This document shows positions 10,518 to 25,535 of a DNA stretch of 34,367 nt, in pieces. Source of the stretch: Candidatus Moraniibacteriota bacterium. GTDB taxonomy: Bacteria > Patescibacteriota > Minisyncoccia > Moranbacterales > UBA9337. The position numbers and the translations under genes were made by a program. The notes under the pieces were generated by a model, which was not told where the DNA came from, ran no database searches, and saw nothing but the letters and a program-made list of their open reading frames with translations. Position 1 is the first letter of the stretch. Each line of letters begins with the position of its first letter. The stretch covers positions 1-34,367 of the forward strand of contig DOKP01000063.1 of the NCBI GenBank assembly GCA_003510795.1, in the 5' to 3' direction.

Positions 10518-13500
10518 ATGTTTTTCGGTAAAAAAAATAAAATTCGGGTGATATTTTTTGCTACAGTGGGCGTGCTGTTGGCGGGTTTTGTTTTTGGTTT
10601 AAACTTAGTTAAGGCGCAAACAATAAAAACAACCAAGGGTACGCTTGATATTTCAGCTTATATTTTAAACCAAGAAAATAAAGAAATTCCCAATGGAAAG
10701 TATCAAGTAAGATTTGCAATTTATTCCAAGGATAGAAGTGAAAAAGATCCTTATCCATCTGATGATGATAAGAACTCGAGAATTTGGGAAGAGGAGCAGG
10801 AAGTTGAAATTTCCAGTGGTGTTTTTAATACTTATCTGGGCTTAGTCAGCGCTCTTCCGGAGAATATTGATTTGGCGGCTAGCGAATATTATTTGGGAAT
10901 TAGAATCGGTGAAGATAGTGAGAGCATACCAAGGAAAAAAATTGGCTATGTGCCCTCAGCCATAAATGCTATAAACTCAGTTAATTCTACTTTCGTTAAT
11001 GGTGCTACTACAGGAATTGCGCAAGGAAATATTTTACTGCTTGGAAAAAATGGCAAAATAGATTTAGACAGGTTGCCTACGGGAACTGATGCAAATTCAT
11101 TGGTTTTGGGAGATGATGGAAGATTGCATGATCAAAATACGGATACGGGAACAAATTCAACGGAATTTAATATTGGCAACGGGACTGGAGTAAATAGTAA
11201 TTTTAATTTAACGGTTTCAAATGCTTCCAACAAACCCGCTATTCGATTTAACGGATTAAGCCAGAAATGGGAACTTTCAAACGATGGAACGACTTTCGCG
11301 GAATTGGGCGGAGGTAGCGCTTTGCAAAGCCAAATCGATCAGCGAGCTTTGATCGGACATACTCATTCAACTGCAGATATAATTTCCGGAACACTATCGG
11401 CTAGCCGGGGAGGTACAGGATTGGATGGAGCGTTTGCAACAGACGGTCAGCTTTTAATTGGGAATGGCACCGGTTATTCTTTGGGAAATTTAAGCAGTTC
11501 AGATTCAAGTATCGTTATCACTAATGGATCGGGTGCTATTGATTTAGTTTCTTCTCTTGGGACAAATGTAGATATCTCAAGCGAAACTAACTTGACTGCT
11601 AGCGGTTTATTGCTGAATTTAACTGGAGATAATCTTTCCATAAATGAAGGAATTCTCACTGACGGAATGCTCTGTACTTACAGTTCTACAGATGGATTAA
11701 TTTGTGATACTCTAAGCAGTTCTGTCGGACATGCGCCAGTAAGTATAGGATCTCCAGCCAATGGTCTCTCAGTGAATGGAGCGCAAACCATCAGTTTAGC
11801 TTTAGCTAGCGCAACTACCAACGGAGCGTTAAGCAGTAGCGATTGGAATATTTTTAATAATAAAGTTTCCTCGCAATGGATTACCACTGGATCAGATATT
11901 TATTATCTGGCTGGGAATGTAGGAATAGGCACTTCTTCGATTGCAGAAAGATTAACCGTGGCTGGAAATATCCAATTAAGCGGAAGTATTTTTGCAACTA
12001 ATACTTCTCAAGATATCGGAACAGCGACAGAGAGATTCAGATATGGATATTTTGAAAATTTGGATGTTAATAATATAAGCGTGGGGGGATTGGATATTTC
12101 CGGATCAATAGCAAACATATTTACCATTAATTCCAATAATGCTACCAATGATACAGAAGACAGTTTCCTTGCTTTTGATCGAGGTGAAAATGGAGGAGTT
12201 TCAAATTTACCAGCTACAATTCAGTGGGATTCTGCCAATGATATTTTTGTAACTAACTATCCATTGAGTATTTCCGGCAATGCAACGGCGGCTGGATTTA
12301 GCGTGGGCGGAGAAACAATAACTGATTGGACGGGGACGGGAATGATAATTTCCGGAGGGGCTTTGACCACATCGTTGGGGACGGCAATCGATATTTCCAG
12401 TGAAACTAATCTGGCAGTTGGCGGTACATTGCTAACTAGGGCAGATGATACTCTTTCTTTGCGTGAAGGTTTCCTTGCCAACGGCAGACTTTGTACTTAT
12501 GACACAACCTCAGGCTTGGTTTGCAATACAGACAGTGCTACTGTTGGGCACAATGCTCTTACTATCAACGCTACTGCCAACGGTCTCAGTGTTAATGCTT
12601 CTCAAGTTTTATCTTTAGCTTTAGCGAGTACTTCTACCATCGGTGCCCTTAGCGATACAGATTGGGATACTTTCAATAACAAGCAAAATGCCCTAACCCT
12701 TGGAAATATTACAGGTACAACTAATCGAGTTTCCGTGGCAGGAGGAACAGGAGCTATTATCGGAACTGGAGTAACTTTGAATCTTCCTCAAGACATTGCC
12801 ACCACCAGTACTCCAACTTTCGGAGGCTTAACTGTCAGTGGTAATCAAACAATTACTGGTTCTTTAGGTATCCGAGAAAGTACTGGAGCAACTTTCTACA
12901 CATACTTCCAAGGAGGAGATCAAAGTGGAAATATTACTTACACTTTGCCAACTGGAGCTCCGGCAAGTGATGGTTATGTTTTAACTTCTGCTGCTAATGG
13001 AACAATGAGTTGGCAATCAGTTAGTGGAACCGGAGGCACCACTGGAACCGGATCAGCTAACCAGGTAACTTACTGGACCGGCACCTCTACCTTAGCTGGA
13101 GAAAATCAATTGAATGTCAGCCGAGGAGGCACTGGAATTGATGGAAGTACCGTTGCTAACGGTAGACTTTTAATTGGAAATGGAACCGGCTACACTTTAG
13201 CTAACCTAACTAGTGCTGACAGCAGTATTGTAATTACCAATGGAGCCGGAAGTATTAATTTGGTAAGTTCGTTGGGGACGGCAATCGACATCTCTTCTGA
13301 AACTAATCTAACTGGCGACGCTGAAATAGTTCTTACCGGAGATTCTCTAAGCATCGCTGCCAGTATTGCCAGAGATAGTGAACTTCATAGTGCTGTAACT
13401 TTAAGTGGTCAAACATATTTATCATTAGTCGGTCAAGCTCTGACTGCCAGCCAAATTAATTTAACTTCCCATGTGACAGGAACACTCCCCGTAGCTAACG

Positions 13501-16500
13501 GCGGAACCGGAGCCACATCTCTAAATGATTTAATTACTCTGGGCACTCACACAGCTGGAAATTACATCTCTACCGTCACCGGCAACACTCAAATCGTAGT
13601 CGGGGGAGTAGGAGCAGAAAATGCTACTGCAACTTTATCTATCGGAGCAGATTCAATTGGAGATACTCAACTAGCTTTTAACACCGGTCAACATCTAGCC
13701 ACCACCAACTCCCCAACCTTTGCCGGTCTAACTTTAAATGGCAATCAAACTTTAAATGGAACATTAGCTATTAGAGAAGGCGGAGGAACACCAACTAACT
13801 ACACAACTTTTGTCGGAGGAGTGCAAAGTGCGGATGTAACTTACACCCTTCCAACGGGAGCTCCTTCTAGCAATGGCTATTTCCTATCTGCTCAAACAGA
13901 TGGAACTTTAGCTTGGCAATCAATTTCTGGAGCAGGGGGAATGAATTCTTTTTCTCTCTCTGCCGATACTGGAACTACTCAAACAATTGGTGATTCAGAA
14001 ACAGTTAATATTTTAGGCGGAACTAATCTAGCTTCAACTATCGATGCTTCCAACAATGTTACTCTAAACTTAGATTCCACTTTAACGGGAGTAACTTGGA
14101 ATGGAAATGATATTGATATTTCTGATTACACTAATTTAAGTGGCAACGCTGAAATAGTTCTTACCGGAGATTCTCTAAGCATCGCTGCCAGTATTGCCAG
14201 AGACTCTGAACTTCACACTATCGCAACTGTCAGCGGTACTCCAAACTATATCACTCTAAGTGGACAAGATATCGTGCGAAGTTTAATTAATTTAACTTCC
14301 CATGTGACAGGAACACTCCCCGTAGCTAACGGCGGAACCGGAGCTATCACTTTAAATGATTTAATTACTCTCGGCACTCACACAACTGGCAGTTATGTGA
14401 ACACCATCACCGGCAACACTCAAATCGTAGTAGGCGGAGTAGGAGCAGAAAATGCTACTGCGACTTTATCTATCGGAGCTGATTCAATCGGAGATACTCA
14501 ACTGGAATTTAATACCGGGCAAAATTTAACTACCACATCTTCCCCAACCTTTGCCGGTCTAACTTTAAATGGCAATCAAACAGTTAATGGAACATTAGCT
14601 ATCAGAGAAGGCGGAGGAACACCAACTAATTACACAACTTTTGTCGGAGGAGTGCAAAGTGCGGATGTAACTTACACCCTTCCAGTTGCAGGAGGGAATG
14701 ATGGAGAAGTTTTAAAAACAGATGCTAGTGGTAACTTGTATTGGGCGTTAGTGGCTGGAGGAACAGGCGGGATTGGAACAGTTACTAGTGTTAGTTCAGG
14801 CAACGGTTTAACAGGAGGTCCAATAACTGGATCAGGAACTTTATCTATTAATTTATTATCTACTGACACCGATAGTGCAACAGCATCTTCTTATTCCGGA
14901 ATGGAATTTGTGGGCGGACAATTATCATTAATTAGAGGTTGTGGAGCCAATGAAGTAATGGGTTGGGACAATACAAATGGAGTTTGGAAATGTACATCGG
15001 TTTCTGGAACAGGTGGAACAACCGGCTCTGGTTTGGCGGGACATATTCCTTATTGGTCAAGCGCAAGTAATCTTACTTATGACAGTAATGGAGACTTTTT
15101 TTGGGATGTTGCTAATAATAGACTAGGAATTGGAACAACTTCTCCCGTAACTGCCTTGGATGTAAATGGAACAATTACAACTACCGGACTAACTTTAAAT
15201 GGCAATCAAACTTTAAATGGAACTCTCGCCATTAGAGAAGGCGGAGGAACACCAACTTTTTATACAACTTTTCAAGGAGCGGATCAACTAGGAAATATTA
15301 CTTATATATTGCCAGCATCAAATACAAACGGTTTGCTTCGAAATACTGCTGGAGTTTTATCTTGGGATACAAATAGCTATTTAACTGCTAATCAAACTAT
15401 TACACTTACGGGCGACGTGACAGGCAGTGGCACAACTTCAATTGATACTATAGTAGGAGATGATTCTCATGCTCATACTTCTACAACTCTTCCTGCTTCC
15501 ATTTCATATTTAGGAAGTCAAATTGACATTTCCAGTGAAACCAATCTCTCCGGCGACACAGAGATAGTTCTTACTGGAGACTCATTATCTATCGCAGCCT
15601 CGATTGCCAGAGATAGTGAACTTCACACTATCGCTACTATGAGTGGCACTCCAGACTATATTACTCTTGTTGGACAAGATATTGTCAGAGGATTAATCGA
15701 TTTAACAAGCGACATTATCGGAACACTCCCGATAGCCAATGGAGGAACCGGAGCTACATCTTTAAATGATTTAATTACTCTCGGCACTCACACAGCCGGA
15801 AATTACATCAACACTATTACCGGTAACACTCAAATTGTTGTCGGGGGAGTGGGAGCAGAAAATGCTACTGCGACTTTATCTATCGGAGCCGATTCCATCG
15901 GAGATACACAATTAGAATTCAACACCGGACAAAATCTAACTACCACAAGTTCCCCAACATTTGCCGGACTAACAGTTAGTGGTAATCAAACAGTAACCGG
16001 AACTTTAGGAATTAGAGAAAGTACCGGAGCAACTTTCTATACATATTTCCAAGGAGCAGATCAAATAGGGAATGTAACTTATACTTTACCCTCGGGTGCG
16101 CCAGTGGCTGATAATTATGTTTTGACTTCCGCTATGGATGGAACTTTGGCGTGGCAATCAAGTGGAGCGGTGGGAGCAGTAAATGGAAATGGGGCTGCTA
16201 ATCAAGTAGCCTATTGGACCGGAGTGGGAACAATTGCCGGAGAAAACCAACTCAACGTAAGTCGAGGAGGAACAGGAGTTAACGCTTCTGCTATTGCTGA
16301 TGGACAACTTCTAATTGGAAATGACACAGCTAATAACTATACTTTAGCCACCTTAACTCCCGGAGATGGAATTAATATTACCAATGGAGCCGGATCAATT
16401 ACAGTAGCTTCCACCTTAGGAACGAGTATTGATATATCCAGCGAAACTAATCTGGCTGGAGATTCTGAAATAGTTTTAGATAGTGACTCTCTATATATTG

Positions 16501-19500
16501 CCGCTTCAATTGCTCGCGACTCTGAACTACATGACTCTATGACCTTAAGCGGAGAGTCTTATCTTTCCAGAGTCGGTCAAGCTCTAACCGCTAACCAAAT
16601 TAATCTTGCCAGCCATGTAACTGGAACACTTCCAATTGCTAACGGCGGAACCGGAGCTGTAACTTTAGATAATTTAATCACTCTCGGCACTCACACAACG
16701 GGTAGTTATGTAAACACCATTACCGGCAACACTCAAATAGTTGTCGGCGGAGTAGGAGCAGAAAATGCTACCGCGACTTTAGCTATCGGAGCAGACTCCA
16801 TCGGAGATACTCAATTAGAATTTAATACCGGACAAAATTTAACTACCACAAGTTCCCCAACATTTGTCGGCTTAACTTTAAATGGCAATCAAGCAATTAC
16901 GGGAACTTTGGGAATCCGAGAAAGTGACGGAGCAACTTTCTATACTTATTTCCAAGGAGCCGATCAAATCGGGAATGTAACTTATACTTTACCATCAGGT
17001 GCGCCAGTGGCTGATAATTATGTTTTAACTTCCGCTACGGATGGAACCATGAGTTGGTCATTAGTCAGTGGAGTGGGCGGAATGAGTTCCTTTTCTCTCG
17101 CAGCGGACACCGGCACCACTCAAACTATTGGCAATACTGAAACAGTTTCAATTTTAGGCGGTACTAACATAGCTTCAACTATCGATGCGTCTAACAATGT
17201 TACTCTAAACTTAGATTCCACTTTAACGGGAGTGACTTGGAATGGAACTGATATTGATATTTCTGATTACACTAACCTTGCTGGCGACACAGAAATAGTT
17301 CTTACTGGAGATTCTCTAAGCATTGCAGCCAGTATCGCCAGAGATAGTGAGCTTCACAGCGAAGTAACTTTAGGCGGAGAGTCATATCTTTCCAGAGTTG
17401 GTCAAGCTCTAACGGCTAATCAAATTAATCTTGCCAGCCATGTAACCGGAACACTTCCGATTGCTAACGGCGGAACCGGAGCGACAACTCTTAATGATTT
17501 AATTACTCTCGGAACTCACACAGCTGGAAATTATGTGCAGTCGATAACTAATGGTGATGGAATTTTAGGTGGAAACGGAGGAAGCGAGGGTTCAGCGCTT
17601 ACTCTTTCTATAGACGCACTTACGACTGGCACAACTCTTACTACTTTTTCTAATTCCGGATTAGAGACCACCGCCGATGGAGTGAGATTAATCGGGGGAT
17701 GTAATGATGGACAAATTTTAACTTGGGATGCGGATGATGTCAGATGGGAGTGCACTACTAATACAGCCGGATCAAGCGATTGGACTGATGACGGAACCGC
17801 TACTTATCTAACAGACGTGACTAATGATTTTATTATCGGAGGAACTTCTCTAGCTTCTTCGATGTTTGGTGTTGATGAATCAGCTGGAGCGTTCTATTTT
17901 GGTTCAGACGCGAGCGCTAACCCAAGTTTTAACTTCACCGCTACCGATAGCGATACCGGAACTTTTGGATTTAATGATAATGACGCATTTTATTTCAGTG
18001 GAGCGAATGTGGGGATTGGGATAGCTGCTCCAACAGAAGCATTACATATTTCGGGGGGAAATATATTATTAGATAATACATATAGCTTAAAATGGTCTGC
18101 CGGTCCGCAAATTACAGGTGGCCCATCAATGACAATAGACGGGGGGACAAACGTATTGAACTTTAGAGGAAATTCCACAAATCATACTTTCATTTCCGTT
18201 GGCGGAAATTGGGGGCTTGGAGATGCGACACCTGAATCGCGGATGGAAATTAGCGCAAATGGAGGAGCTACTGATTTATTTATGCTTTCTTCGAATGATG
18301 ATCTTAATGGAGATTTATTTGTAGTTAAAAATTCTGGTTATGTCGGTATTGGCGACACCACTCCCGCCTCATTATTCACTGTTGGTGATGGTGATTTATT
18401 CCAAATCAATTCTTCTGGTCAAGTAGTGGCTGGAACATGGAACGGAACAGATATTGATATTTCTGACTATACCAATCTGGCCGTAGATGGATCAGGTGAA
18501 ATCGTTTTAACCGGAGATACTTTAAGTATCGCGGCTTCAATTGCTCGCGACGCTGAACTGCATGATGCTATGACCTTAAGTGGAGAATCGTATCTTTCCA
18601 GAGTCGGTCAAGCTCTGACAGCTGCTCAAATTAACCTCGCTTCTCATGTAACCGGAACTCTCCCAGTCGGAAATGGTGGCACCGGACTGAGTGCCTACGG
18701 AACCTCTAACCAAATCATGGGAATGAACGCGGCCGGCAATGCCCTCGAATACAAAACAGTTAGTGGAACTGCTAATCAAATTACAGTTACAAACGCGGTT
18801 AATTCTTTAACTTTATCTTTACCACAAGATATTGCCACCACATCGAGCCCAACATTTGCCGGAGTAACATTGAGTGGACTTACCCCCGGATCAATTCCAT
18901 TTATTGGAACGGGTGGAATAGTTTCGCAGGATAACTTAAATCTATCTTGGAATGACGCGAGCAATTATCTTTATCTTGGTTCAGCTTTCTCGTTTGGCAT
19001 TGACGCGACTGATTCCAATAAATTTAAAATATATTCCGGCAATGGCATCGCAGGAACATCTGAATTTAGCATTGATGAAAATGGAGTTACTTCAATTGCT
19101 AATCTTGAGCTGGGAGAATTGGCTTTTAATGATGATTCCGGGGCGATCTCTTGGATTGATATGGGAGTTACGTCTGGTGCAGTGGACAATACGATAGAAT
19201 CATATACTGCTCAACTTGACGGTAATCCAATGCTAACAATTTATGGCCTTTCTGATGGATTGGGTGGAGTAGACAATTTGGGGGTCGGCATCGGCACAGT
19301 TACTCCAACTGCCAAACTTCACATTGCTGCGGGAATGGCAACTGCAGGCGGAGCTCCTCTCAAACTAACCAGCGGAACAAATTTAACCACTCCCGAAGCT
19401 GGAGCTTTTGAATATGATGGTACTAACTTATATTTCACTCCAAATACTACTCGAGAAGAAGTCGCCTTTATGAGTGATATTACCGCTTCAGCTGTCACGC

Positions 19501-22500
19501 TCACCAATTCTCCCGCTACTTATGATTACCTTACAATTTCCGATCAAGCGATTACTCTTAATCAAATAAATTTAACTACTGATGTAACCGGAACATTGCC
19601 AGTCGGAAATGGTGGAACTGGCTTGACTTCATACGGCGCTGCTAATCAAATCATGGGAATGAATGCGGCTGGGGACGCCTTGGAATACAAAACAGTTTCT
19701 GGGACTGCCAATCAAGTTACAATTACCCCAGCCGCTAATTCTTTGACCTTATCTTTACCTCAAGATATCCACACCGCCGCCAATCCGACATTCGCTGGCC
19801 TGACTTTAAGCGGCCTCACTGCCGGTTCAATTCCATTCATCGGAACAGGCGGAATAGTTTCGGAGGATAATGACAATTTATTTTATGACGTGACAAATCA
19901 TTATCTGGGACTGGGTACAACAACTCCAACATATATGCTAGACATTGCAGGTGCTAGCGGACTTTCCAATCTATTTAGGATTTCTTCCGCCGGCTCCGAC
20001 ATCATGACCGTGACTGATACCCAAACAACTTTCAGCAATCCAGTCGCCTTCGGTTCAGTTGGAGATGTCTCAATGGCGTATGATTTGGTGATGAGTAATT
20101 CTTCATCTGCTAATATTAATTTTAATGGTTCAGGATATATTCAAACCACTAGCGCTTGGCAAAATCTAGATCTGACATTGAGCGCGGCTAATGATGGTTA
20201 TATCGTGGCGGCTGACACTCTTTTAAATGATGTCGATTTATCTGCTGTTACTGCCGGGGAGTATTATGGAACTAACATTGATGTGGATTCAACTGGAATA
20301 TTTACCACCGGCACGACTAATATTTATGGCATCAATTCTAACGCCACTGCCAGCGGAATTTCCACCGGTGGAACAGTCAATACTTACGGCGGATATTTCA
20401 GCGCCACAGGAGAAAACACCGGCGCTGCTACGACCAATGCTTATGGACTCTATGTAAACGGTGCCACCGGCGCGGATAATAATTATTCCGCCGCCTTTAT
20501 GAATGGAAATGTGGGGATTGGAACAGCCACGCCAACTTATAATTTAGAAATAGCTGATGATAGCAGTGAATTATATAGTTTTTATGCAAATAAAAGCAAT
20601 GGAAATACGGACAGTTCTGTAATTCGTGCTTCAGGAACCAGTAACACGACAGGTGTTCGTTCTTCGGCTGTTGGTGGATGGGCATTAAGAGGTGATCATG
20701 CTGGTACTGCTTCTGGAGGCGCACTGCAACTGTATAGTGGAAGCATAACTTCTTCTGTTCTTGCATATTTTACACAAGCTAGTAGTGTTTTTTCAGGCGA
20801 TGCATTAGTTATGAACATGGGAAGGGGAGGCGGATCGTTTACAGGAAACTTTATCAATCTTCAGGTTAATGATAGCTCTTTGTTTACAATCAACGCCAGC
20901 GGGCAAGTGGTAGCGGGCACCTGGATGGGCGCCACTATTGGAGTGGGTTATGGAGGAACGGGAACTTCGACTGCCTTTACAACTGGTTCAATTCCATTTG
21001 CTGGAGCGGGCGGAGTGTATACCCAGGATAATAGTAATTTCTTCTGGGATAACTCCACTAAGCGCTTAGGAATTGGTACCAATACTCCTGGATCAATGCT
21101 TGATTTATTTGGAGTAAATAATCAATTGAGATTCTCTTATGATATTAGCAATTACGCTACGCTTTCGGCTGATAATACTGGCGCTCTCGTGATGAGCGGT
21201 AGTGGCGCGAGTGGTTCAAAAATAACTATCGGTTCGGGCTTAGCCGAAGATTCTTTGGCAATTTTTGATGGCAATGCTCAGGACTTTCATTTAGGCTTGG
21301 ATGACACGGATGACATCTTTAAAATCGGTTTAGGCGGAGCTTTGGGCACGACTGATTTCTTATCCATGGATGCCAATGGAAGAATCGGCATTGGTACCGT
21401 AGCGCAAACAGCATTATTACACCTAAATGGAACTGAGGGCGTGGTGGGATTAGAAATTAATTCTAATCAAACTACCTCCACAAATAATATTATGATGCTT
21501 CGCTCAGATGTGGCGAGCGCCGATGATGCAGTTTTCCGCGTGCAAGCCAATGGAGCGGTTTATGCTGATGGAGCTTACACGGGGACAGGCGCAGACTATG
21601 CTGAGTATTTCTTTACTAAGAACAAAGATTTAGTGGCCGGAGAAACAGTTTGTATCGATGAAGAAAATAATAATGCCATAAAGAGATGTAGCCGAAGCGG
21701 AGACACTAATATCATGGGTATTGTTTCCAGCAATCCTTCGGTAATCGGTAATGGCCAAGATGACAGAGAAAATGATGAGAATTATAAAGTGATTGGAATG
21801 TTAGGCCAGATTCCAGCCAGAGTAAATGATGAAAACGGAGCTATCAAAATCGGAGATGGATTAGCTGCGGCCAATATGCCCGGATATTTAAGAAAAGCCG
21901 AAGCCGGAGAGTCAACGGTTGGTATCGCGTTGGAGAAATTAGTTAGCGGTGATAGTACAATTCAAGTGATGATTTCCAGGAGGAATAAAAGCTTGACCGT
22001 AGAAACCGTCGAGCAATCTATCCAAGACAGAATTGCCAATATGGAAATAGAAGATCAAGTTAATCAAATTATTGCCAATGGCGCAGAAATGTTGGAAGTT
22101 AGATCCAGTTTAGCGAGCTTGGAATTGGCTGTAACTGGCAATGGTCTTTTGGTTACTGATATTCAAATCCAGATGAATCAAATCAAAGAACAAATTAGAG
22201 AGATTGATTTTGTTGAGATGAATGATAAACTGGATACTCTTTTGAGCTTTTTAGATGCGTCCGATGGAAATGTAAAAATTGATGGAAAATTAGAAGTAGC
22301 CATAACGGAAACAGGCGCTTTGGTGATAAAAAATATTGACTTAGAGGCGCCAACAATTGGAACTGGAAAAATTTGCGGTTTGATTGCGGATACTAAAGAT
22401 GAGAACGGAAATTACGATAATATTGATGATTGCAGTGGAAATAAAATTCCATATGACAAAGATGGAGACCAAATGAATGATTGGACAAATAATACTGAGC

Positions 22501-22769
22501 CGATGCCCAAAGATGAAAATCATGATTGGATTGATGACGATACGCATGAGCCCATTATTAATAATGGAAAGAAAGTAATCGTTCCTACTAAAGCTGTAAG
22601 TAAAAATAGTAAGATATTTGTCACCTCTACTTCAGCCGCTATTATTCAACCATTGGCAGTAGTAGATATCAAAGAAGGTGAAAGCTTCACAATCGAAACA
22701 AATGACGGCATAGAAGTCGACAACGCTTTGGAATTCAATTGGTGGATTGTGGAAGAAGGGAAAGAATAA
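10518..22769 (+). CDS. giant (4083 aa) secreted tail-fibre-like repeat protein with a peptidase-G2/IMC-like C-terminal region, coiled coil and acidic Asp-rich tail
   Basis: Uninterrupted 12.25-kb ORF with an N-terminal signal/TM (VIFFATVGVLLAGFVFGLNLVKAQ). At least 8 modules begin with DISSETNL / DIDISDYTNL and contain LP[VI][AG]NGGTGA..LNDLITLG, a phage-tail-fibre-like GGTG motif. GADYAEYF...IMGIVSSNPSVIGN...IGDGL starting near nt 21588 resembles the peptidase G2 / intramolecular-chaperone autocleavage domain of phage appendage proteins. A heptad-like segment spans ~21990-22260, and the tail is DxD-rich. Confidence 0.85.
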   Translation: MFFGKKNKIRVIFFATVGVLLAGFVFGLNLVKAQTIKTTKGTLDISAYILNQENKEIPNGKYQVRFAIYSKDRSEKDPYPSDDDKNSRIWEEEQEVEISSGVFNTYLGLVSALPENIDLAASEYYLGIRIGEDSESIPRKKIGYVPSAINAINSVNSTFVNGATTGIAQGNILLLGKNGKIDLDRLPTGTDANSLVLGDDGRLHDQNTDTGTNSTEFNIGNGTGVNSNFNLTVSNASNKPAIRFNGLSQKWELSNDGTTFAELGGGSALQSQIDQRALIGHTHSTADIISGTLSASRGGTGLDGAFATDGQLLIGNGTGYSLGNLSSSDSSIVITNGSGAIDLVSSLGTNVDISSETNLTASGLLLNLTGDNLSINEGILTDGMLCTYSSTDGLICDTLSSSVGHAPVSIGSPANGLSVNGAQTISLALASATTNGALSSSDWNIFNNKVSSQWITTGSDIYYLAGNVGIGTSSIAERLTVAGNIQLSGSIFATNTSQDIGTATERFRYGYFENLDVNNISVGGLDISGSIANIFTINSNNATNDTEDSFLAFDRGENGGVSNLPATIQWDSANDIFVTNYPLSISGNATAAGFSVGGETITDWTGTGMIISGGALTTSLGTAIDISSETNLAVGGTLLTRADDTLSLREGFLANGRLCTYDTTSGLVCNTDSATVGHNALTINATANGLSVNASQVLSLALASTSTIGALSDTDWDTFNNKQNALTLGNITGTTNRVSVAGGTGAIIGTGVTLNLPQDIATTSTPTFGGLTVSGNQTITGSLGIRESTGATFYTYFQGGDQSGNITYTLPTGAPASDGYVLTSAANGTMSWQSVSGTGGTTGTGSANQVTYWTGTSTLAGENQLNVSRGGTGIDGSTVANGRLLIGNGTGYTLANLTSADSSIVITNGAGSINLVSSLGTAIDISSETNLTGDAEIVLTGDSLSIAASIARDSELHSAVTLSGQTYLSLVGQALTASQINLTSHVTGTLPVANGGTGATSLNDLITLGTHTAGNYISTVTGNTQIVVGGVGAENATATLSIGADSIGDTQLAFNTGQHLATTNSPTFAGLTLNGNQTLNGTLAIREGGGTPTNYTTFVGGVQSADVTYTLPTGAPSSNGYFLSAQTDGTLAWQSISGAGGMNSFSLSADTGTTQTIGDSETVNILGGTNLASTIDASNNVTLNLDSTLTGVTWNGNDIDISDYTNLSGNAEIVLTGDSLSIAASIARDSELHTIATVSGTPNYITLSGQDIVRSLINLTSHVTGTLPVANGGTGAITLNDLITLGTHTTGSYVNTITGNTQIVVGGVGAENATATLSIGADSIGDTQLEFNTGQNLTTTSSPTFAGLTLNGNQTVNGTLAIREGGGTPTNYTTFVGGVQSADVTYTLPVAGGNDGEVLKTDASGNLYWALVAGGTGGIGTVTSVSSGNGLTGGPITGSGTLSINLLSTDTDSATASSYSGMEFVGGQLSLIRGCGANEVMGWDNTNGVWKCTSVSGTGGTTGSGLAGHIPYWSSASNLTYDSNGDFFWDVANNRLGIGTTSPVTALDVNGTITTTGLTLNGNQTLNGTLAIREGGGTPTFYTTFQGADQLGNITYILPASNTNGLLRNTAGVLSWDTNSYLTANQTITLTGDVTGSGTTSIDTIVGDDSHAHTSTTLPASISYLGSQIDISSETNLSGDTEIVLTGDSLSIAASIARDSELHTIATMSGTPDYITLVGQDIVRGLIDLTSDIIGTLPIANGGTGATSLNDLITLGTHTAGNYINTITGNTQIVVGGVGAENATATLSIGADSIGDTQLEFNTGQNLTTTSSPTFAGLTVSGNQTVTGTLGIRESTGATFYTYFQGADQIGNVTYTLPSGAPVADNYVLTSAMDGTLAWQSSGAVGAVNGNGAANQVAYWTGVGTIAGENQLNVSRGGTGVNASAIADGQLLIGNDTANNYTLATLTPGDGINITNGAGSITVASTLGTSIDISSETNLAGDSEIVLDSDSLYIAASIARDSELHDSMTLSGESYLSRVGQALTANQINLASHVTGTLPIANGGTGAVTLDNLITLGTHTTGSYVNTITGNTQIVVGGVGAENATATLAIGADSIGDTQLEFNTGQNLTTTSSPTFVGLTLNGNQAITGTLGIRESDGATFYTYFQGADQIGNVTYTLPSGAPVADNYVLTSATDGTMSWSLVSGVGGMSSFSLAADTGTTQTIGNTETVSILGGTNIASTIDASNNVTLNLDSTLTGVTWNGTDIDISDYTNLAGDTEIVLTGDSLSIAASIARDSELHSEVTLGGESYLSRVGQALTANQINLASHVTGTLPIANGGTGATTLNDLITLGTHTAGNYVQSITNGDGILGGNGGSEGSALTLSIDALTTGTTLTTFSNSGLETTADGVRLIGGCNDGQILTWDADDVRWECTTNTAGSSDWTDDGTATYLTDVTNDFIIGGTSLASSMFGVDESAGAFYFGSDASANPSFNFTATDSDTGTFGFNDNDAFYFSGANVGIGIAAPTEALHISGGNILLDNTYSLKWSAGPQITGGPSMTIDGGTNVLNFRGNSTNHTFISVGGNWGLGDATPESRMEISANGGATDLFMLSSNDDLNGDLFVVKNSGYVGIGDTTPASLFTVGDGDLFQINSSGQVVAGTWNGTDIDISDYTNLAVDGSGEIVLTGDTLSIAASIARDAELHDAMTLSGESYLSRVGQALTAAQINLASHVTGTLPVGNGGTGLSAYGTSNQIMGMNAAGNALEYKTVSGTANQITVTNAVNSLTLSLPQDIATTSSPTFAGVTLSGLTPGSIPFIGTGGIVSQDNLNLSWNDASNYLYLGSAFSFGIDATDSNKFKIYSGNGIAGTSEFSIDENGVTSIANLELGELAFNDDSGAISWIDMGVTSGAVDNTIESYTAQLDGNPMLTIYGLSDGLGGVDNLGVGIGTVTPTAKLHIAAGMATAGGAPLKLTSGTNLTTPEAGAFEYDGTNLYFTPNTTREEVAFMSDITASAVTLTNSPATYDYLTISDQAITLNQINLTTDVTGTLPVGNGGTGLTSYGAANQIMGMNAAGDALEYKTVSGTANQVTITPAANSLTLSLPQDIHTAANPTFAGLTLSGLTAGSIPFIGTGGIVSEDNDNLFYDVTNHYLGLGTTTPTYMLDIAGASGLSNLFRISSAGSDIMTVTDTQTTFSNPVAFGSVGDVSMAYDLVMSNSSSANINFNGSGYIQTTSAWQNLDLTLSAANDGYIVAADTLLNDVDLSAVTAGEYYGTNIDVDSTGIFTTGTTNIYGINSNATASGISTGGTVNTYGGYFSATGENTGAATTNAYGLYVNGATGADNNYSAAFMNGNVGIGTATPTYNLEIADDSSELYSFYANKSNGNTDSSVIRASGTSNTTGVRSSAVGGWALRGDHAGTASGGALQLYSGSITSSVLAYFTQASSVFSGDALVMNMGRGGGSFTGNFINLQVNDSSLFTINASGQVVAGTWMGATIGVGYGGTGTSTAFTTGSIPFAGAGGVYTQDNSNFFWDNSTKRLGIGTNTPGSMLDLFGVNNQLRFSYDISNYATLSADNTGALVMSGSGASGSKITIGSGLAEDSLAIFDGNAQDFHLGLDDTDDIFKIGLGGALGTTDFLSMDANGRIGIGTVAQTALLHLNGTEGVVGLEINSNQTTSTNNIMMLRSDVASADDAVFRVQANGAVYADGAYTGTGADYAEYFFTKNKDLVAGETVCIDEENNNAIKRCSRSGDTNIMGIVSSNPSVIGNGQDDRENDENYKVIGMLGQIPARVNDENGAIKIGDGLAAANMPGYLRKAEAGESTVGIALEKLVSGDSTIQVMISRRNKSLTVETVEQSIQDRIANMEIEDQVNQIIANGAEMLEVRSSLASLELAVTGNGLLVTDIQIQMNQIKEQIREIDFVEMNDKLDTLLSFLDASDGNVKIDGKLEVAITETGALVIKNIDLEAPTIGTGKICGLIADTKDENGNYDNIDDCSGNKIPYDKDGDQMNDWTNNTEPMPKDENHDWIDDDTHEPIINNGKKVIVPTKAVSKNSKIFVTSTSAAIIQPLAVVDIKEGESFTIETNDGIEVDNALEFNWWIVEEGKE
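13287..18560 (+). repeat. array of ~0.83-1.4 kb intragenic repeat modules with long near-identical DNA stretches
   Basis: Module starts lie near 13287, 14109, 15525, 16431, 17250 and 18450, with degenerate copies near 11571 and 12390. For example, the 56-nt gctgaaatagttcttaccggagattctctaagcatcgctgccagtattgccagaga is identical at 13319 and 14148. A ~60-nt stretch (...catgtgacaggaacactccccgtagctaacggcggaaccggagc) is identical near 13450 and 14290. Confidence 0.85.
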
Positions 22770-22770
22770 T

Positions 22771-22809
22771 TCTTTGGATTTTTCGATGGGCGGGACGAGT
22801 TGGTGTGAG
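22771..22809 (+). pseudogene. 13-codon relic of the dockerin-like C-terminal module (SLDFSMGGTSWCE)
   Basis: atgggcgggacgagttggtgtga at 22786-22808 is an exact 23-nt match to 34340-34362, the 3' end of the gene at 32513-34366. The relic translates as SLDFSMGGTSWCE versus SLGLSMGGTSWCE. It begins 2 nt after the giant gene's stop and has no upstream ORF of its own. Confidence 0.7.
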
Positions 22810-22853
22810 TGGATCATTTTGCAATTAAAGTAATAATTTTTCTAAGTATTCTA

Positions 22854-24590
22854 ATGATGAAAGAAATAAAATTGATAATTATTTTAGTTTCTTTGATATT
22901 TTATCTGGGAGTGTCCGCTAAAAATGTTTTTGCCGCGGACTTCTATATCTCACCGACCGGGAATGATTCTAATAACGGGCAGACTTCCAGCACTCCTGTG
23001 GCGACATTCGCGCATGCTGAAACACTTCTCAATGCTGGCGATACACTCATTCTGATGGACGGGATATATAATCAGCAACTCCACCCGAGAAAATCAGGCA
23101 CTGAAGGGAACCCTATTACGTATATGGCGCAAAATCGGGGACAGGCGATAATCCAGATGACAACGCCTGGAGAAGCCATTCTTCTAGCCAGTAATTCAAG
23201 CGGTTATCCGGGGGGAGCGTTTTACTGTCACGACATTACCATCGATGGCCTGATTGCGAGGAGTAATGGAGAATATAATACAATTGTGATTAATAGCTGG
23301 GATTCTGCAACTGAAGCAGAAATGGTAAAACGCATTATAATCAGGAACATAGGAGCGTTCGGGTCGGCTCTTGACGCCAACGCCGCTGCCGTAGCAATAG
23401 GAAATAACGCTACTTATATTACCATTGAGGACAGCTTTGCCTACGGCATAGGTCGGGCAGCAATGATTGCTTTTGGTTCGAGTCATATAACCGTCAGGCG
23501 AGTCGTTTTGAGGTATGATTACTGGCGGGGAACAGGGAAAATAAACGATCCAAGGAGAGCATTTTCAGGATATAACACCCAAGACTCAGTTTTTGAAAAT
23601 ATTATAGTTCTCGATGGGGCGCCGATGCCCCCAGAAGTGAGCTGCGATATGGCGGGAATGGTTGCCAGTGGGAATTTGACTCCGGCGTACGTAACACATA
23701 GTGCCAGAAACAAATATTTAGGATCGATTGTTCTCAATACTGTTGGTAATGGTTTGTTAACAAATGGTGGTGGGTCGCCTAATGAAGATCAGCAATTTAA
23801 AGATTTGATATTTCATAAAGTTACCGGCTATGGTGCTGTTGTTGAACAGCTAGAGACAAGGGGAATATATGAATATATTACAATCAAAAACTCTGGGGCA
23901 CTTGGATTTAAAACAGGGACTAATGGTGTGTCAGACGAAACCATTAAAAACTTTTTTATTGACACTACAGGTGGGGTTGGATTTTATTTAGAAAATCCTT
24001 CTGCTGTAACCACGTTTGTAGATAATACAGCTATCAATCTTGTATCTGGTAGTCCAATCGAGGCATCATATGCTCCAACATTAGATTATCTCACTAGGCC
24101 CACAATGGTAACTGGACATGAGCGCGGTGGAACTATGGTAAACCGTTACGTCGATGGCAACTTGACATCAATCCCTTTGTGGCCATGGCCCAATGAGGAT
24201 TTAATCAGGGAAAATATGTGTGATCCTGATGATTTAATTACTGCCCATCGAACATCAGCCAATGGCGCAGGATGGGAACCTGAGTGGTGCGCTTCCAACA
24301 AAACATTAACAGAACATATTTGGGAATACTTGGGCAATGAATGTCCTGAAGAAATATGCGGAGCAATATCTATCCGCTCGGACGTCGACAATTCTTCCGC
24401 CACCAACACCACTGACGCACTTCTGACTCTCCGCAATTCCCTCGGCCTTTCCATGGACGGTACGGCGTGGCAAGTGGGAGCGACAACTGGCGACGTGGAT
24501 TGTAGTGGTGCTTCCAATTCGACTGATGCACTTTTAATTCTTCGATATTCTTTGGGACTCTCGATGGATGGGACGAGTTGGTGCGAATAA
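22854..24590 (+). CDS. secreted right-handed parallel beta-helix (pectin-lyase-fold) protein with a C-terminal double dockerin-like module
   Basis: Signal peptide MMKEIKLIIILVSLIFYLGVSAKNVFAA from the ATG at 22854 (the track start at 22809 is GTG). DFYISPTGNDSNNG...AGDTLILMDGIY is the typical beta-helix N-cap. The C-terminus has two EF-hand-like segments, DVDNSSATNTTDALLTLRNSLGL and GDVDCSGASNSTDALLILRYSLGL. Confidence 0.8.
   Translation: MMKEIKLIIILVSLIFYLGVSAKNVFAADFYISPTGNDSNNGQTSSTPVATFAHAETLLNAGDTLILMDGIYNQQLHPRKSGTEGNPITYMAQNRGQAIIQMTTPGEAILLASNSSGYPGGAFYCHDITIDGLIARSNGEYNTIVINSWDSATEAEMVKRIIIRNIGAFGSALDANAAAVAIGNNATYITIEDSFAYGIGRAAMIAFGSSHITVRRVVLRYDYWRGTGKINDPRRAFSGYNTQDSVFENIIVLDGAPMPPEVSCDMAGMVASGNLTPAYVTHSARNKYLGSIVLNTVGNGLLTNGGGSPNEDQQFKDLIFHKVTGYGAVVEQLETRGIYEYITIKNSGALGFKTGTNGVSDETIKNFFIDTTGGVGFYLENPSAVTTFVDNTAINLVSGSPIEASYAPTLDYLTRPTMVTGHERGGTMVNRYVDGNLTSIPLWPWPNEDLIRENMCDPDDLITAHRTSANGAGWEPEWCASNKTLTEHIWEYLGNECPEEICGAISIRSDVDNSSATNTTDALLTLRNSLGLSMDGTAWQVGATTGDVDCSGASNSTDALLILRYSLGLSMDGTSWCE
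24372..24590 (+). repeat. conserved 3' dockerin-like module, copy 1
   Basis: About 215 nt, roughly 85% identical by eye to 34146-34366, while the upstream parts of the two genes are unrelated in sequence. Confidence 0.8.
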
Positions 24591-24658
24591 ATTGAAAAAC
24601 TCCCCCTTTTATGCGATAATTGAAATATAAAATAACTAGCTAAATATCAAAAAAATAA

Positions 24659-25315
24659 ATGAAAAAAATAAAAGCCTATTGGCAAAAAAATCCCAAGAAA
24701 AGAAAATTGATGATGTTTGGGGTAGTAGTTGTAGGTATGGCTTTATCTTTCGGATTGTATGCCTTGGCGCAGTCGTTTATCGACAGTTTTCTGGACACAA
24801 CCAGAATTGCCAATACTTGGAATGTAAATGTGGACACTGGGGCGGGAGAAATCAAACTGGCTGATAAAACTTGCGATGACGGCGTGTGGTTTTGCTCTCT
24901 ATCGACCACTTGTACCAACAGTCTGGGAGATGGCACCAATATTATCGTCAAAAGAGTTAATGAAACCGGTAGCAAACAATGGAAACCGGCCAACACGGCT
25001 TGCGACAAACCAAATTGCGCGACTGACGGCGGGCAAGACGGAGATAATCTGGTGGCGGATAACACGGTCAACTTCTCTGGTTATCCCGCGCAGGATGCTT
25101 GCAAGATGGCAGGTGGTAGGTTGCCCACTATCAGCGAATTGCAATGCATCTATGCTAACCGTACGATTTTTGGAAATAATTTTGGCACGAGCTATTACTG
25201 GAGTGCGACAGAGGGCTCTACGACGTACGCCCGCCTCGTGAATTTCAATGACGGCAATTCGAACTACAACCTTAAGACGAATAGCTACTCAGTCCGCTGT
25301 GTGCGAGGTTGGTAA
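24659..25315 (+). CDS. DGR target protein: membrane-anchored, Cys-rich, C-terminal DUF1566 / C-type-lectin-like domain carrying the variable region
   Basis: N-terminal TM (LMMFGVVVVGMALSFGLYALA). GGRLPTISELQCIY...YYWSATE...VNFNDGN...YSVRCVRGW matches the DUF1566 (Lcl C-terminal-like) pattern. The last 44 codons are the VR. The gene is noticeably more GC-rich than its neighbours, which produces several spurious overlapping ORFs. Confidence 0.9.
   Translation: MKKIKAYWQKNPKKRKLMMFGVVVVGMALSFGLYALAQSFIDSFLDTTRIANTWNVNVDTGAGEIKLADKTCDDGVWFCSLSTTCTNSLGDGTNIIVKRVNETGSKQWKPANTACDKPNCATDGGQDGDNLVADNTVNFSGYPAQDACKMAGGRLPTISELQCIYANRTIFGNNFGTSYYWSATEGSTTYARLVNFNDGNSNYNLKTNSYSVRCVRGW
25181..25313 (+). 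other. DGR variable region (VR) with putative IMH at its 3' end
   Basis: Aligns without gaps to 25536-25668 (offset 355). There are 11 mismatches in 25181-25308, at 25193, 25214, 25215, 25226, 25235, 25236, 25265, 25271, 25272, 25286 (10 positions) plus none elsewhere; counting both bases of each doublet gives 11, and every one corresponds to an A in the TR. Confidence 0.95.
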
Positions 25316-25535
25316 TTTGGAAAATTTGGAATTTGGAAAATAAAAATAAAATGGGTCAGATTTTTTTGGATATTTGTATTTTTTCTCGGTATTGAATATA
25401 AATAATCAAAAAAGAGATGAAAAAACATTTACCACGATCTTAATCCAAACAAAAAGTTTGATAAAATGTCAGGTAATAATTTTTAATATTTTTTTAAATC
25501 TTATTGCCGCAGGATGGTACTGTGTTAAGATTTTA

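What the first reader, a model, noticed from the sequence alone, without database searches (positions are those of the whole stretch)
22770..22853. Recombination scar: a 13-codon fragment of the dockerin-like tail sits 2 nt after the giant gene's stop codon
22771-22809 reads SLDFSMGGTSWCE, against YSLGLSMGGTSWCE at the end of the gene at 32513-34366. It includes an exact 23-nt match (22786-22808 = 34340-34362) and the same terminal WCE. Nothing upstream in that frame is coding, because the giant gene's stop is at 22767-22769. The simplest reading is that a dockerin-tailed gene once ended here and its body was replaced or deleted, or that the giant gene's 3' end was inserted into it. With two intact copies of the ~215-nt module at 24372-24590 and 34146-34366 attached to otherwise unrelated beta-helix bodies, the module looks like a portable 3' cassette and a recombination hotspot for shuffling surface-protein genes.
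Basis: partly seen in the sequence, partly recalled or inferred. Interest (0 to 1): 0.65.

Follow-up and report, generated by a model that had tools for sequence, protein, structure and literature searches.

The report
Leftover end of a lost dockerin-tailed gene
A roughly 60-base leftover of the end of a lost surface-protein gene sits right after a giant gene's stop codon in a groundwater Moranbacteria genome; it is most likely a harmless recombination scar, and it points to a gene family whose shared tail is repeatedly cut, swapped and left behind.

Summary
Positions 22769-22808 match the last 40 nt of both intact dockerin-like modules (35/40 and 33/40), including a 23-nt exact run where shuffles expect none. 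Against a related tail the homology continues through a former stop codon (TAG now TGG, 22810-22812) to about 22829. The piece is therefore the 3' end of a gene plus its downstream flank, with a single breakpoint on its left at 22769/70.

The giant gene's end is native. Nine sequenced homologues all end in ...WWIVEE (or WVIMEE) plus 2-11 residues, and none carries a dockerin. Four other assemblies of the same Candidatus Moranbacteria population carry the identical junction, so it is not an assembly artefact.

In that otherwise identical background the neighbouring gene's module carries 27 substitutions in 210 nt, against 0 in the 1,622 nt upstream. The module sits at the C-terminus of well over 100 distinct protein clusters. 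Related arrays contain many module remnants, often behind transposase, toxin-antitoxin or ATPase genes.

I found no promoter, terminator, RNA fold or Rfam match in the remnant. Verdict: a recombination scar, a new example of a known kind. A minority reading, that the tail end is a recombination anchor for gene cassettes, is not excluded.

The parts
22769..22809 (+). Coding part of the remnant: the last 13 codons (22771-22809, SLDFSMGGTSWCE) of a dockerin-like module. The left breakpoint is at 22769/70.
   Evidence: 35/40 to 34323-34362 and 33/40 to 24547-24586, with a 23-nt exact run. Profile positions 190-231 of 232, E = 1.7e-7.
22810..22829 (+). Former stop codon (TGG at 22810-22812, TAG or TAA in related tails) plus about 17 nt of the 3' flank that follows such tails ('..ATCATTTT..').
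   Evidence: Blastn aligns 22769-22829 to L011 6479-6540 at 82%, E = 9e-9. Similarity beyond about 22829 is not above shuffles.
10518..22769 (+). Giant gene (4083 aa) with a native C-terminus, ...EFNWWIVEEGKE*. Its stop codon (22767-22769) abuts the remnant.
   Evidence: Homologues P0001-P0012 all end ...WWIVEE (or WVIMEE) plus 2-11 residues and none has a dockerin. Several homologues carry a precomputed Pfam Peptidase_G2 hit.
22752..22784 (.). Imperfect palindrome centred on the junction: GAAGAAGGGAAAGAAT-A-ATTCTTTGGATTTTTC, with perfect 7-bp arms AAAGAAT/ATTCTTT.
   Evidence: I2. The same stem appears in the RNA fold. Its significance is unexplained.
22723..22757 (+). Patch of 8 substitutions in the last ~15 codons of the giant gene, relative to four other assemblies that are otherwise identical here. 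It ends 11 nt before the remnant.
22854..24590 (+). Gene for a 578-aa right-handed beta-helix protein with a signal-peptide-like N-terminus. The remnant lies 45 nt upstream of its ATG.
   Evidence: Below-threshold Pfam hints (Chondroitinase B, Pel9A-like beta-helix, Dockerin_1). The cluster representative P0084 carries a precomputed Pel9A-like hit.
24363..24590 (+). Intact in-frame dockerin-like module of the 578-aa gene. It forms a direct repeat with the remnant, 1778 nt apart.
   Evidence: It carries 27 substitutions against the same gene in other assemblies, versus 0 in the 1622 nt upstream.
34138..34366 (+). Intact in-frame dockerin-like module of the 617-aa TIG/beta-helix protein. It is the best in-window match to the remnant.

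Best explanation
The segment 22769-~22829 is a non-functional remnant of the 3' end of a former 'unit' that ended in a dockerin-like module. It keeps the last 13 codons, the stop codon (now mutated) and the first ~20 nt of the downstream flank. That unit once lay directly upstream of the 578-aa beta-helix gene, in a co-directional array of the kind seen just beyond the window's end and in related Moranbacteria contigs.

One illegitimate joining event fused the position 40 nt before the end of that module to the base after the giant gene's native stop codon. The event was either a deletion of everything between the giant gene and that point, or the placement next to the giant gene of a segment that began there. 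The right side of the remnant is still continuous with its original flank and with the next gene. The remnant now survives as part of an 84-nt intergenic spacer.

Shown: the homology, its extent and its single breakpoint; the native end of the giant gene; fixation of the junction in the population; recombination confined to the module between strains.

Inferred: that the joining was illegitimate and used microhomology (the bases A/TT are shared by 'TAATT' and the module's 'TATTC'); which of deletion or insertion occurred; and that the remnant has no function.
For: - Homology far above chance, extending through the former stop into the flank. There is no homology to the left of 22769.
- Signs of relaxed constraint: G->D and L->F in the near-invariant SLGLSM motif, and TAG->TGG.
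- The giant protein family ends natively in WWIVEE plus a few residues.
- In more distant relatives (L001, L002, L003) the giant gene is followed by diversity-generating retroelement (DGR) parts, with no tail remnant.
- The identical junction occurs in four other assemblies from four samples, which excludes an artefact.
- No sigma-70-like promoter or terminator-like site lies in the remnant or spacer. The RNA folds worse than shuffles (z = +2.3). There is no Rfam match.
- The family is demonstrably in flux. The module alone is mosaic between strains (Fisher p = 8e-27). The UR83 copy of the same gene has lost its tail through a frameshifting change; the deletion is my inference from the protein sequence. 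Many 5'-truncated or internally deleted module copies exist in related arrays, including a second ~43-nt remnant at L006 2321-2363 behind an unrelated LamG gene.
Against: - No relative with an intact gene at this position was found, so the ancestral state is inferred.
- All six 5'-truncated remnants in the data keep the extreme 3' end and none is 3'-truncated. Purely random decay does not predict this.
- The two shortest remnants (the window's and L006's) share almost the same left boundary (ATTCTTTGG).
- The junction is the centre of a 7-bp-arm palindrome.
- These points hint at a mechanism or a constraint tied to the tail's end.
- The identity of the remnant across the five assemblies says nothing about selection, because the flanking 1.6 kb is also identical.
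Confidence: 0.74

Rival explanations
1. The last ~40 nt of the module, with its flank, is a functional recombination anchor (att-like, or a preferred site of homologous crossover). Units such as surface-protein genes, transposase, toxin-antitoxin pairs and ATPases would be inserted and exchanged at it in co-directional arrays. On this reading the window's remnant is a minimal copy of that site, marking the left edge of the '578-aa gene + module' unit.
For: - In related loci nearly every gene or gene pair ends in a module or is followed within 0-92 nt by a module remnant, all on one strand.
- The genes in front of the out-of-frame copies are typical mobile or defence cargo: Y1_Tnp, RhuM, AAA_14+DUF4143, Bro-N, AbiEii, NTP_transf_2+HEPN, ORF6N.
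- Homology between duplicated units stops exactly at the module's end in two pairs, and different units are butted together at the stop codon.
- All 5'-truncated copies keep the 3' end, 6 to 0.
- The two shortest remnants share a left boundary.
- Out-of-frame modules still show synonymous changes far exceeding non-synonymous ones.
- Thr62 ACG and Gly61 GGG in the tail vary less at synonymous sites than the equivalent codons of the first repeat.
Against: - No integrase or recombinase is encoded in the window. The upstream genes are housekeeping.
- The module and flank have no attC-like imperfect palindrome and no Rfam match.
- The left boundaries of remnants are otherwise scattered (profile positions 74, 109, 133, 163, 178-190).
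- Seven copies have a 28- or 57-nt insertion that splits the putative site.
- Several other codons also have low synonymous diversity, so the DNA-level signal is weak.
- Ordinary homologous recombination among about 230-nt repeats that are 76-88% identical, plus decay, can explain most of the pattern.
- The sample is about ten contigs from one aquifer lineage, retrieved with a pattern from the tail itself.
Confidence: 0.13
2. The remnant has been co-opted as part of the 5' untranslated leader or promoter of the 578-aa gene, or as a weak stem-loop that stabilises or ends the giant gene's transcript.
For: - It lies 45 nt upstream of the ATG.
- The junction forms a small AU-rich stem.
- In arrays every gene is naturally preceded by the previous unit's tail.
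Against: - No promoter-like or terminator-like site falls in 22770-22853.
- The predicted fold is weaker than shuffles.
- Other genes of the family sit 17-100 nt after quite different flanks.
- There are no expression data.
Confidence: 0.07
3. The giant gene itself once carried a dockerin tail and lost it through truncation or a frameshift, so the remnant is the giant gene's own former end.
For: - The remnant begins at the giant gene's stop codon.
- The remnant's frame is open back to 22714.
Against: - All nine retrieved homologues of the giant protein's C-terminus, 37-79% identical, end ...WWIVEE (or WVIMEE) plus 2-11 residues and none continues into a dockerin.
- There is no module similarity upstream of 22769 in any frame.
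- About 190 nt of module would have to vanish exactly at the native stop.
Confidence: 0.03
4. The match is a chance similarity or an assembly chimera at a repeated k-mer.
For: The match is short and the sequence comes from a metagenome.
Against: - Zero matches in 100 shuffles; E = 9e-9 and 1.7e-7.
- The same junction appears in five independent assemblies.
- No k-mer is shared to the left of the junction, as a repeat-mediated misjoin would require.
Confidence: 0.01

Closest known systems
Orphaned gene-end fragments left by 'C-terminal displacement' in rhs, CDI and T6SS effector-immunity loci, with homology-facilitated illegitimate recombination as the proposed mechanism (as reviewed in PMC5361080)
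   Same: Truncated pieces of gene ends lie next to intact family members. They are explained by recombination anchored in a conserved part of the gene, with an illegitimate junction on the other side. Strings of such fragments build up in arrays.
   Different: The polarity is reversed. Here the conserved anchor is the 3' module and what survives is a piece of that conserved part, not a displaced variable toxin tip with its immunity gene. No toxin or immunity function is involved. The mechanism here is inferred, not demonstrated.
Type I dockerin modules of cellulosomal enzymes (Pfam PF00404; e.g. PDB 1ohz_B, 4uyq_B)
   Same: A ~70-residue C-terminal module made of two loop-helix repeats with D/N-rich loops, attached to many unrelated secreted catalytic bodies. 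The best PDB sequence matches and the top 13 fold matches are all dockerins.
   Different: The host is a Candidatus Moranbacteria (CPR) bacterium. Scores are borderline: Pfam 23.1 and 17.6 bits against a cut-off of 22.9, and Foldseek E >= 0.18. Each repeat is followed by SLGLSM-GT-W, and the module ends in an almost invariant ...SWCE with two cysteines. No cohesin partner was identified.
Integron cassette arrays (IntI plus attC)
   Same: In related loci the arrays are co-directional and compact. Each unit, including toxin-antitoxin pairs treated as one unit, ends with a copy of one conserved repeat.
   Different: No IntI-type integrase is present, the repeat has no attC-like palindromic structure, and the repeat is a protein-coding module of ~230 nt that is in frame in about half the units.
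Ordinary gene remnants (pseudogene fragments) at deletion junctions in bacterial genomes
   Same: A short piece homologous to part of a functional paralogue, lacking a start and an upstream coding region, with a lost stop and non-conservative changes.
   Different: It abuts a neighbouring gene's stop codon to the base, and it belongs to a family in which such remnants recur.

Membership tests
Gene remnant / recombination scar | Significant homology to only part of a functional gene present elsewhere | tested here: met
   40 nt at 83-88% with a 23-nt exact run. 61 nt at 82% to a related tail plus flank, E = 9e-9.
Gene remnant / recombination scar | No coding continuity: no start codon context, and the upstream homology is missing | tested here: met
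   Nothing above shuffles upstream of 22769. The preceding sequence is the giant gene in another frame.
Gene remnant / recombination scar | Changes that functional copies do not tolerate | tested here: met
   GL->DF in SLGLSM. Leu is kept in 25 of 26 near-complete copies and Gly in all 26. The former stop TAG/TAA is now TGG.
Gene remnant / recombination scar | Absent from the equivalent position in relatives that lack the event | tested here: inconclusive
   Absent after the giant-gene homologues in L001-L003, but those are distant (66-75% protein identity). All close relatives already carry it. No intermediate was found.
Type I dockerin domain (PF00404), applied to the intact modules | Two tandem loop-helix (EF-hand-like) repeats | tested here: met
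   Internal repeat (D16). Alignment of both repeats to 1ohz_B and 4uyq_B. The model has two helices, at 13-24 and 50-60.
Type I dockerin domain (PF00404), applied to the intact modules | Score above Pfam's gathering threshold | tested here: inconclusive
   23.1 bits against 22.9 for the 617-aa protein, and 17.6 against 22.9 for the 578-aa protein. Several homologues carry a precomputed PF00404 hit.
Type I dockerin domain (PF00404), applied to the intact modules | Dockerin fold | tested here: inconclusive
   Mean pLDDT 73.9. The top 13 Foldseek PDB hits are all dockerins, but with E 0.18-1.9 and TM about 0.4.
Type I dockerin domain (PF00404), applied to the intact modules | Calcium-dependent binding to a cohesin partner | not testable with these tools
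   No cohesin was searched for or found. This needs biochemistry.
Type I dockerin domain, applied to the remnant itself | A complete, translatable domain | tested here: not met
   Only 13 of about 70 codons remain. It is out of frame with the giant gene and has no upstream module sequence.
Integron (attC / cassette array) | IntI tyrosine recombinase next to the array | tested here: not met
   The eight ORFs upstream of the giant gene are housekeeping or unrelated (acetyl-CoA synthetase-like, RecJ, HAD, PaaX-like, SLT, NDK, UppS and one uncharacterised). The ORFs scanned in related arrays include no integrase.
Integron (attC / cassette array) | attC-type imperfect inverted repeat ending each cassette | tested here: not met
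   The module is a direct, not inverted, duplication. The only hairpin is a 16-bp stem in some flanks. No Rfam match.
Integron (attC / cassette array) | Co-directional cassettes, each ending in the conserved repeat | tested here: met
   Related loci L006, L010, L011, L013, L014, L018 and L020. In the window itself only the remnant and two modules are present.
IS200/IS605 or REP/RAYT element | HUH Y1 transposase with flanking hairpins at the site | tested here: not met
   There is no Y1 gene or hairpin at the remnant. Y1_Tnp genes with a 40-nt perfect hairpin do occur behind other tails, the nearest starting about 20 nt beyond the window's end (L010 2228-2941).

The most novel reading that the evidence does not exclude
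In Moranbacteria the 3' end of a protein-coding dockerin-like module doubles as the landing and exchange site of a cassette system that has no integron integrase and no attC. Surface-protein genes and mobile or defence cargo (IS200-like transposase, HEPN/MNT and AbiE toxin-antitoxin pairs, AAA_14 ATPases, Bro-N, RhuM) are each delivered with, or next to, a module copy. Out-of-frame copies would be kept protein-like by gene conversion. The 40-nt remnant after the giant gene would be a minimal functional copy of that site.
Probability: 0.12. Interest if true: 0.8.

Novelty: new member of a known kind. Interest (0 to 1): 0.4.

Why it matters
On its own the remnant is a small molecular fossil. It shows that a dockerin-tailed unit once preceded the 578-aa gene and that the giant gene's end was joined to it.

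Its value lies in what it points to. CPR bacteria are thought to depend on surface contacts with other cells. Here one lineage carries a ~70-residue dockerin-like tail on many unrelated secreted proteins. That tail is a measurable site of recombination between co-existing strains, and its copies also punctuate arrays of defence and mobile genes.

That gives a concrete, testable handle on how these tiny genomes remodel their surface and accessory gene sets. If the minority reading is right, it would be a cassette system of a new type.

Tried and rejected
- Extension of homology upstream into the giant gene. MAFFT suggested a weak alignment, but local alignment against shuffles was not significant. 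Rejected.
- Giant gene as former owner of the tail. Rejected on the conserved WWIVEE ends of its homologues.
- Extension of the remnant's flank beyond about 22829 to the terminator hairpin seen after other tails. Not above shuffles in this AT-rich sequence.
- Donor of either module variant in the strain mosaic. None of the held loci is closer than 87%.
- L018 as the ancestral state of the second short remnant in L006. The spacers are not homologous, so it is uninformative.
- Promoter, terminator, RNA structure and Rfam searches in 22400-23200. Nothing found.
- The 28/57-nt insertion. No Rfam match and no significant fold. It has no relation to the window's DGR template and no copy in the window.
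- Programmed -1 frameshift joining the Y1 transposase to its trailing module. The frames overlap by 30 nt after 'T AAA AAA G' in two genomes, but a transposase-dockerin fusion makes no biological sense and there is no canonical heptamer. Left as unlikely.
- Exact look-ups of the window's own proteins failed until the cluster route was used.
- The tail pattern has no match in viral contigs.
- Literature searches found no description of dockerin remnants or of integron-like arrays in CPR bacteria.

Full report
**1. What is in the sequence**

The giant ORF runs 10518-22769 (4083 aa) and ends with TAA at 22767-22769. Read from 22771, the next bases give SLDFSMGGTSWCE, followed by WIILQLK and a stop.

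The 23-mer at 22786-22808 is identical to 34340-34362, and it matches 24564-24586 with three mismatches. None of 100 dinucleotide-preserving shuffles produced any match. Without gaps, 22769-22808 is 88% identical to 34323-34362 and 83% identical to 24547-24586. It is only 63% identical to the equivalent part of the module's first internal repeat.

I built a 232-position nucleotide profile from intact modules. It places the segment at positions 190-231 with E = 1.7e-7. The two intact modules in the window are 82% identical over 229 nt. The two proteins that carry them share nothing else at E < 1e-8.

**2. Extent and polarity of the remnant**

To the left of 22769 there is no similarity to the module above what shuffled sequence gives.

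To the right, the similarity does not stop at the glutamate codon. Blastn aligns 22769-22829 with the tail plus 3' flank of a related gene (L011 6479-6540) at 82% over 62 nt, E = 9e-9. Several related tails are followed by GAG-TAG or GAG-TAA and then (G/A)TCAT..TT. One of them belongs to the 608-aa gene about 6 kb beyond the window's end. The window has GAG-TGG-ATCATTTT at the same place.

The remnant is therefore a gene end with its stop codon (now TGG, 22810-22812) and the start of its own downstream flank. Neither in-window module was its parent type, because both end GAA-TAA. Beyond about 22829 the similarity to other flanks is not significant in this AT-rich sequence.

Only the left edge, at 22769/70, is a breakpoint. 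The right side runs on into the spacer and the next gene.

**3. The giant gene's end is native**

I searched with the last 500 residues of the giant protein and found 83 homologues. I retrieved nine of them, at 37-79% identity. Eight end ...WWIVEE or WWIVQE and one ends WVIMEE, each followed by 2-11 variable residues. None continues into a dockerin. Several carry a precomputed Peptidase_G2 (autoproteolytic, tail-fibre-like) Pfam hit.

In three contigs that carry more distant homologues (L001, L002, L003), the gene is followed by AT-rich spacer and then by parts of a diversity-generating retroelement (DGR). There is no tail remnant and no beta-helix gene. This rules out the idea that the giant gene lost its own dockerin. 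It also suggests that giant-gene to DGR adjacency is the older arrangement.

**4. Origin and population context**

The tail pattern occurs in the species-representative genome collection only in Candidatus Moranbacteria bacterium GW2011_GWF2_35_54. In metagenome contigs it occurs only in groundwater data sets of the same kind. It does not occur in viral contigs.

The window's 578-aa protein clusters with proteins from other Moranbacteria genome bins. Four other assemblies of the same locus, from four samples (L022-L025), carry the remnant and the whole spacer 22769-22853 without a single difference. The junction is therefore real and fixed in this population. It cannot be used as evidence of selection, because the neighbouring 1.6 kb is equally identical.

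**5. Direct evidence that the module recombines**

I compared the window with L022 over 22758-24590.
- There are no differences in the 1,622 nt from the remnant through the body of the 578-aa gene.
- There are 27 substitutions in the 210 nt of its module, and a 108-nt indel that removes the flank and hairpin in the window. Fisher's exact test gives p = 8e-27.
- The last ~15 codons of the giant gene (22723-22757) carry 8 substitutions in 35 nt. This patch ends 11 nt before the remnant.

These are short replacement tracts in an otherwise clonal background. No donor closer than 87% was among the loci I held.

In another bin (UR83), the same gene has a frameshifting change just before the module, which leaves the module stranded behind a premature stop. 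The deletion is my inference from the protein sequence.

**6. The module as a portable C-terminal unit**

Pfam Dockerin_1 scores 23.1 bits against a cut-off of 22.9 for the 617-aa protein. It scores 17.6 bits for the 578-aa protein. The best sequence matches among solved structures are all type I dockerins, led by 1ohz_B at E = 7e-4, and both repeats align. An AlphaFold model (mean pLDDT 73.9) has the two expected helices. Its top 13 Foldseek hits are all dockerins, but with weak scores.

An exhaustive search of cluster representatives found 699 proteins at E <= 1e-3 and 168 at E <= 1e-10. In nearly all of the best 150, the module ends within a few residues of the C-terminus, in proteins of 73-1082 aa. 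About 15 of them are 126 aa or shorter, and about six have the module near the N-terminus.

The closest paralogue of the 578-aa protein in the held loci is 32% identical in the body and about 90% identical in the module. Differences among module copies are overwhelmingly synonymous.

**7. What the related arrays add**

I scanned the fetched loci with the module profile. This showed many copies that are not fused in frame to the preceding ORF. They are full-length, 5'-truncated, internally deleted between the two repeats, or interrupted.

One is a second short remnant, L006 2321-2363. It lies 63 nt after an unrelated LamG gene and has almost the same left boundary (ATATTCTTTGG) as the window's.

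The ORFs in front of these copies were a surprise. They are not surface-protein bodies. They are an IS200-like Y1 transposase, RhuM, AAA_14+DUF4143 ATPases, Bro-N, AbiEii, NTP_transf_2+HEPN pairs, ORF6N and RNA-ligase-like proteins.

The arrays are co-directional and compact, and nearly every gene or gene pair ends in a module or is followed by one within 0-92 nt. The window's own genome continues in this way immediately after position 34367. The order is: 617-aa gene with module, Y1 transposase with module, RhuM with module, AAA_14 with module, then a 608-aa gene with module (L010).

In two pairs of duplicated units the homology ends exactly at the module's end. Different units are also butted together at the stop codon.

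All six 5'-truncated copies keep the extreme 3' end, and none is truncated from the 3' side. Out-of-frame near-complete copies still show far more synonymous than non-synonymous change. This includes one behind the transposase that is shared, frame break included, by two genomes 87% identical in that unit. Gene conversion from coding copies, of the kind seen in section 5, is the simplest explanation.

**8. Function of the remnant itself**

No sigma-70-like promoter and no terminator-like site fall in 22770-22853. The RNA of 22755-22870 folds worse than shuffled controls, with z = +2.3. There is no Rfam match at E <= 1.

The only feature is an imperfect palindrome centred on the junction, AAAGAAT-A-ATTCTTT, which extends to 16-nt arms at 75% complementarity. 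I cannot explain it. It could be a coincidence, a trace of how the junction formed, or a weak transcript-end stem.

**9. Best explanation and rivals**

The best-supported account is a scar. A unit ending in a dockerin-like module once lay upstream of the 578-aa gene, as is the rule in these arrays. One illegitimate joining brought the point 40 nt before that module's end next to the base after the giant gene's stop. The bases A/TT are shared between TAATT and the module's TATTC. The event was either a deletion or the arrival of a segment that started there.

The remnant then drifted, gaining two non-conservative codon changes and losing its stop. I put this at about 0.74.

The main rival is that the tail's end is a functional recombination anchor for a cassette-like system. 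It draws on the regularity of the arrays, the 6:0 asymmetry, the shared boundary of the two shortest remnants and a weak excess of synonymous-site conservation in the tail. Against it stand:
- the absence of any recombinase nearby;
- the absence of attC-like structure;
- the otherwise scattered left boundaries;
- the copies split by the 28/57-nt insertion;
- the small, lineage-restricted and pattern-selected sample.

I put this rival at about 0.13. A leader or stem-loop role (0.07), a lost tail of the giant gene (0.03) and chance or artefact (0.01) follow.

**10. Comparison with known systems**

The nearest precedents are the orphaned gene-end fragments left by 'C-terminal displacement' in rhs and CDI loci, and by effector-immunity replacement in T6SS clusters. 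[quoted passage not shown] The logic is the same: a conserved anchor, an illegitimate far junction, and fragments left behind.

The polarity is reversed, however. Here the conserved part is at the 3' end, and it is a piece of that conserved part that survives.

The module resembles cellulosomal type I dockerins but is borderline by every score, and it has its own conserved ...SLGLSM-GT-SWCE ending. The arrays look like integron cassette arrays, but they fail two defining tests: no IntI and no attC.

I found no paper describing dockerin remnants or such arrays in CPR bacteria.

**11. Verdict**

The feature itself is an ordinary kind of thing, a gene-end remnant at a recombination junction, so it is a new member of a known kind.

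Its interest is moderate (0.4). It comes mainly from the family-level behaviour it exposes and from the minority possibility of a new cassette mechanism.

Noticed in passing
window 24659-27859: A complete diversity-generating retroelement. It comprises a target gene with an Lcl_C domain (24659-25315, variable region 25181-25317), a template repeat (25536-25672), bAvd (25738-26145), a reverse transcriptase (26126-27211) and a second four-helix-bundle protein (27296-27859). Of 13 mismatches between the variable region and the template, 11 fall at template adenines. The variable region also differs between strains.
   Followed up: partly
window 24380-24605, compared with L022-L025: Between otherwise identical assemblies, the module of the 578-aa gene carries 27 substitutions. 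The window also lacks 108 nt of 3' flank, including a hairpin, directly after the stop at 24590. This is a module-sized replacement tract.
   Followed up: yes
window 22723-22757: Eight substitutions in 35 nt at the very end of the giant gene, relative to four other assemblies. One changes an amino acid (N to S). The patch ends 11 nt before the remnant and looks like a short conversion tract from a paralogue.
   Followed up: partly
L008 139 and 1874; L010 4435 and 6027; L011 3624; L013 7246; L018 6388: A nearly invariant insertion with core CCGCCTTGGTGAGCAAAGCGAGACAGG, 28 nt or 57 nt long, sits at the same spot (after ATGRAYGG) of either repeat in seven different module copies. It is always in one orientation and never lies outside modules in the held loci. 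All host copies are out of frame or broken. It has no Rfam match and no significant fold.
   Followed up: partly
L006, L010, L011, L013, L014, L018, L020 (whole loci): Co-directional arrays in which mobile or defence-type genes are each followed by a dockerin-module copy that is not fused in frame. The genes are an IS200-like Y1 transposase, RhuM, AAA_14+DUF4143, Bro-N, AbiEii, NTP_transf_2+HEPN pairs and ORF6N. Dockerin-tailed secreted proteins are interleaved among them.
   Followed up: partly
L010 2212-2272, L011 3780-3840, L014 9994-10054: A perfect 40-nt palindrome (TTTAGCGGTCCAACCGCTTTAAAGCGGTTGGACCGCTAAA) lies between a module's stop codon and the start of each IS200-like transposase gene. 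The nearest copy starts about 20 nt beyond the window's end.
   Followed up: no
L010 2900-2945 and L014 10690-10730: The transposase ORF and the trailing module overlap by about 30 nt in the -1 frame after 'T AAA AAA G'. The same arrangement occurs in two genomes 87% identical in this unit, and the module stays protein-like. Gene conversion is more likely than programmed frameshifting.
   Followed up: partly
window 10518-22769: The giant gene has internal repeats of 830-1410 nt at 70-95% identity (12800-19900). Its length differs between assemblies: 4083 aa here, and 3227 to 4421 aa in called products elsewhere. Homologues of its C-terminus carry Peptidase_G2 (tail-fibre-like autoproteolytic) hits, while Pfam finds nothing in the full protein.
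   Followed up: partly
window 5027-5085, 5136-5173, 5896-5954, 5973-6031: Four copies of a ~38-59-nt repeat (..GGTTATTTTCCGCGTATGTT.ATA..T.ACAG..) bracket the PaaX-like gene at 5238-5855, two copies on each side.
   Followed up: no
window 2300-2350, 4141-4191, 8308-8358; also L001 3500-3560: AT-rich 'TTCAAATTTCAAATTT..' repeats recur in intergenic regions of the window and of a related contig.
   Followed up: no
protein P0205 (UR83 bin): The same 578-aa gene in another bin ends after 472 residues. A frameshifting change (a deletion, inferred from the protein sequence) just upstream of the module strands the module behind a stop. This is a snapshot of how out-of-frame modules arise.
   Followed up: partly
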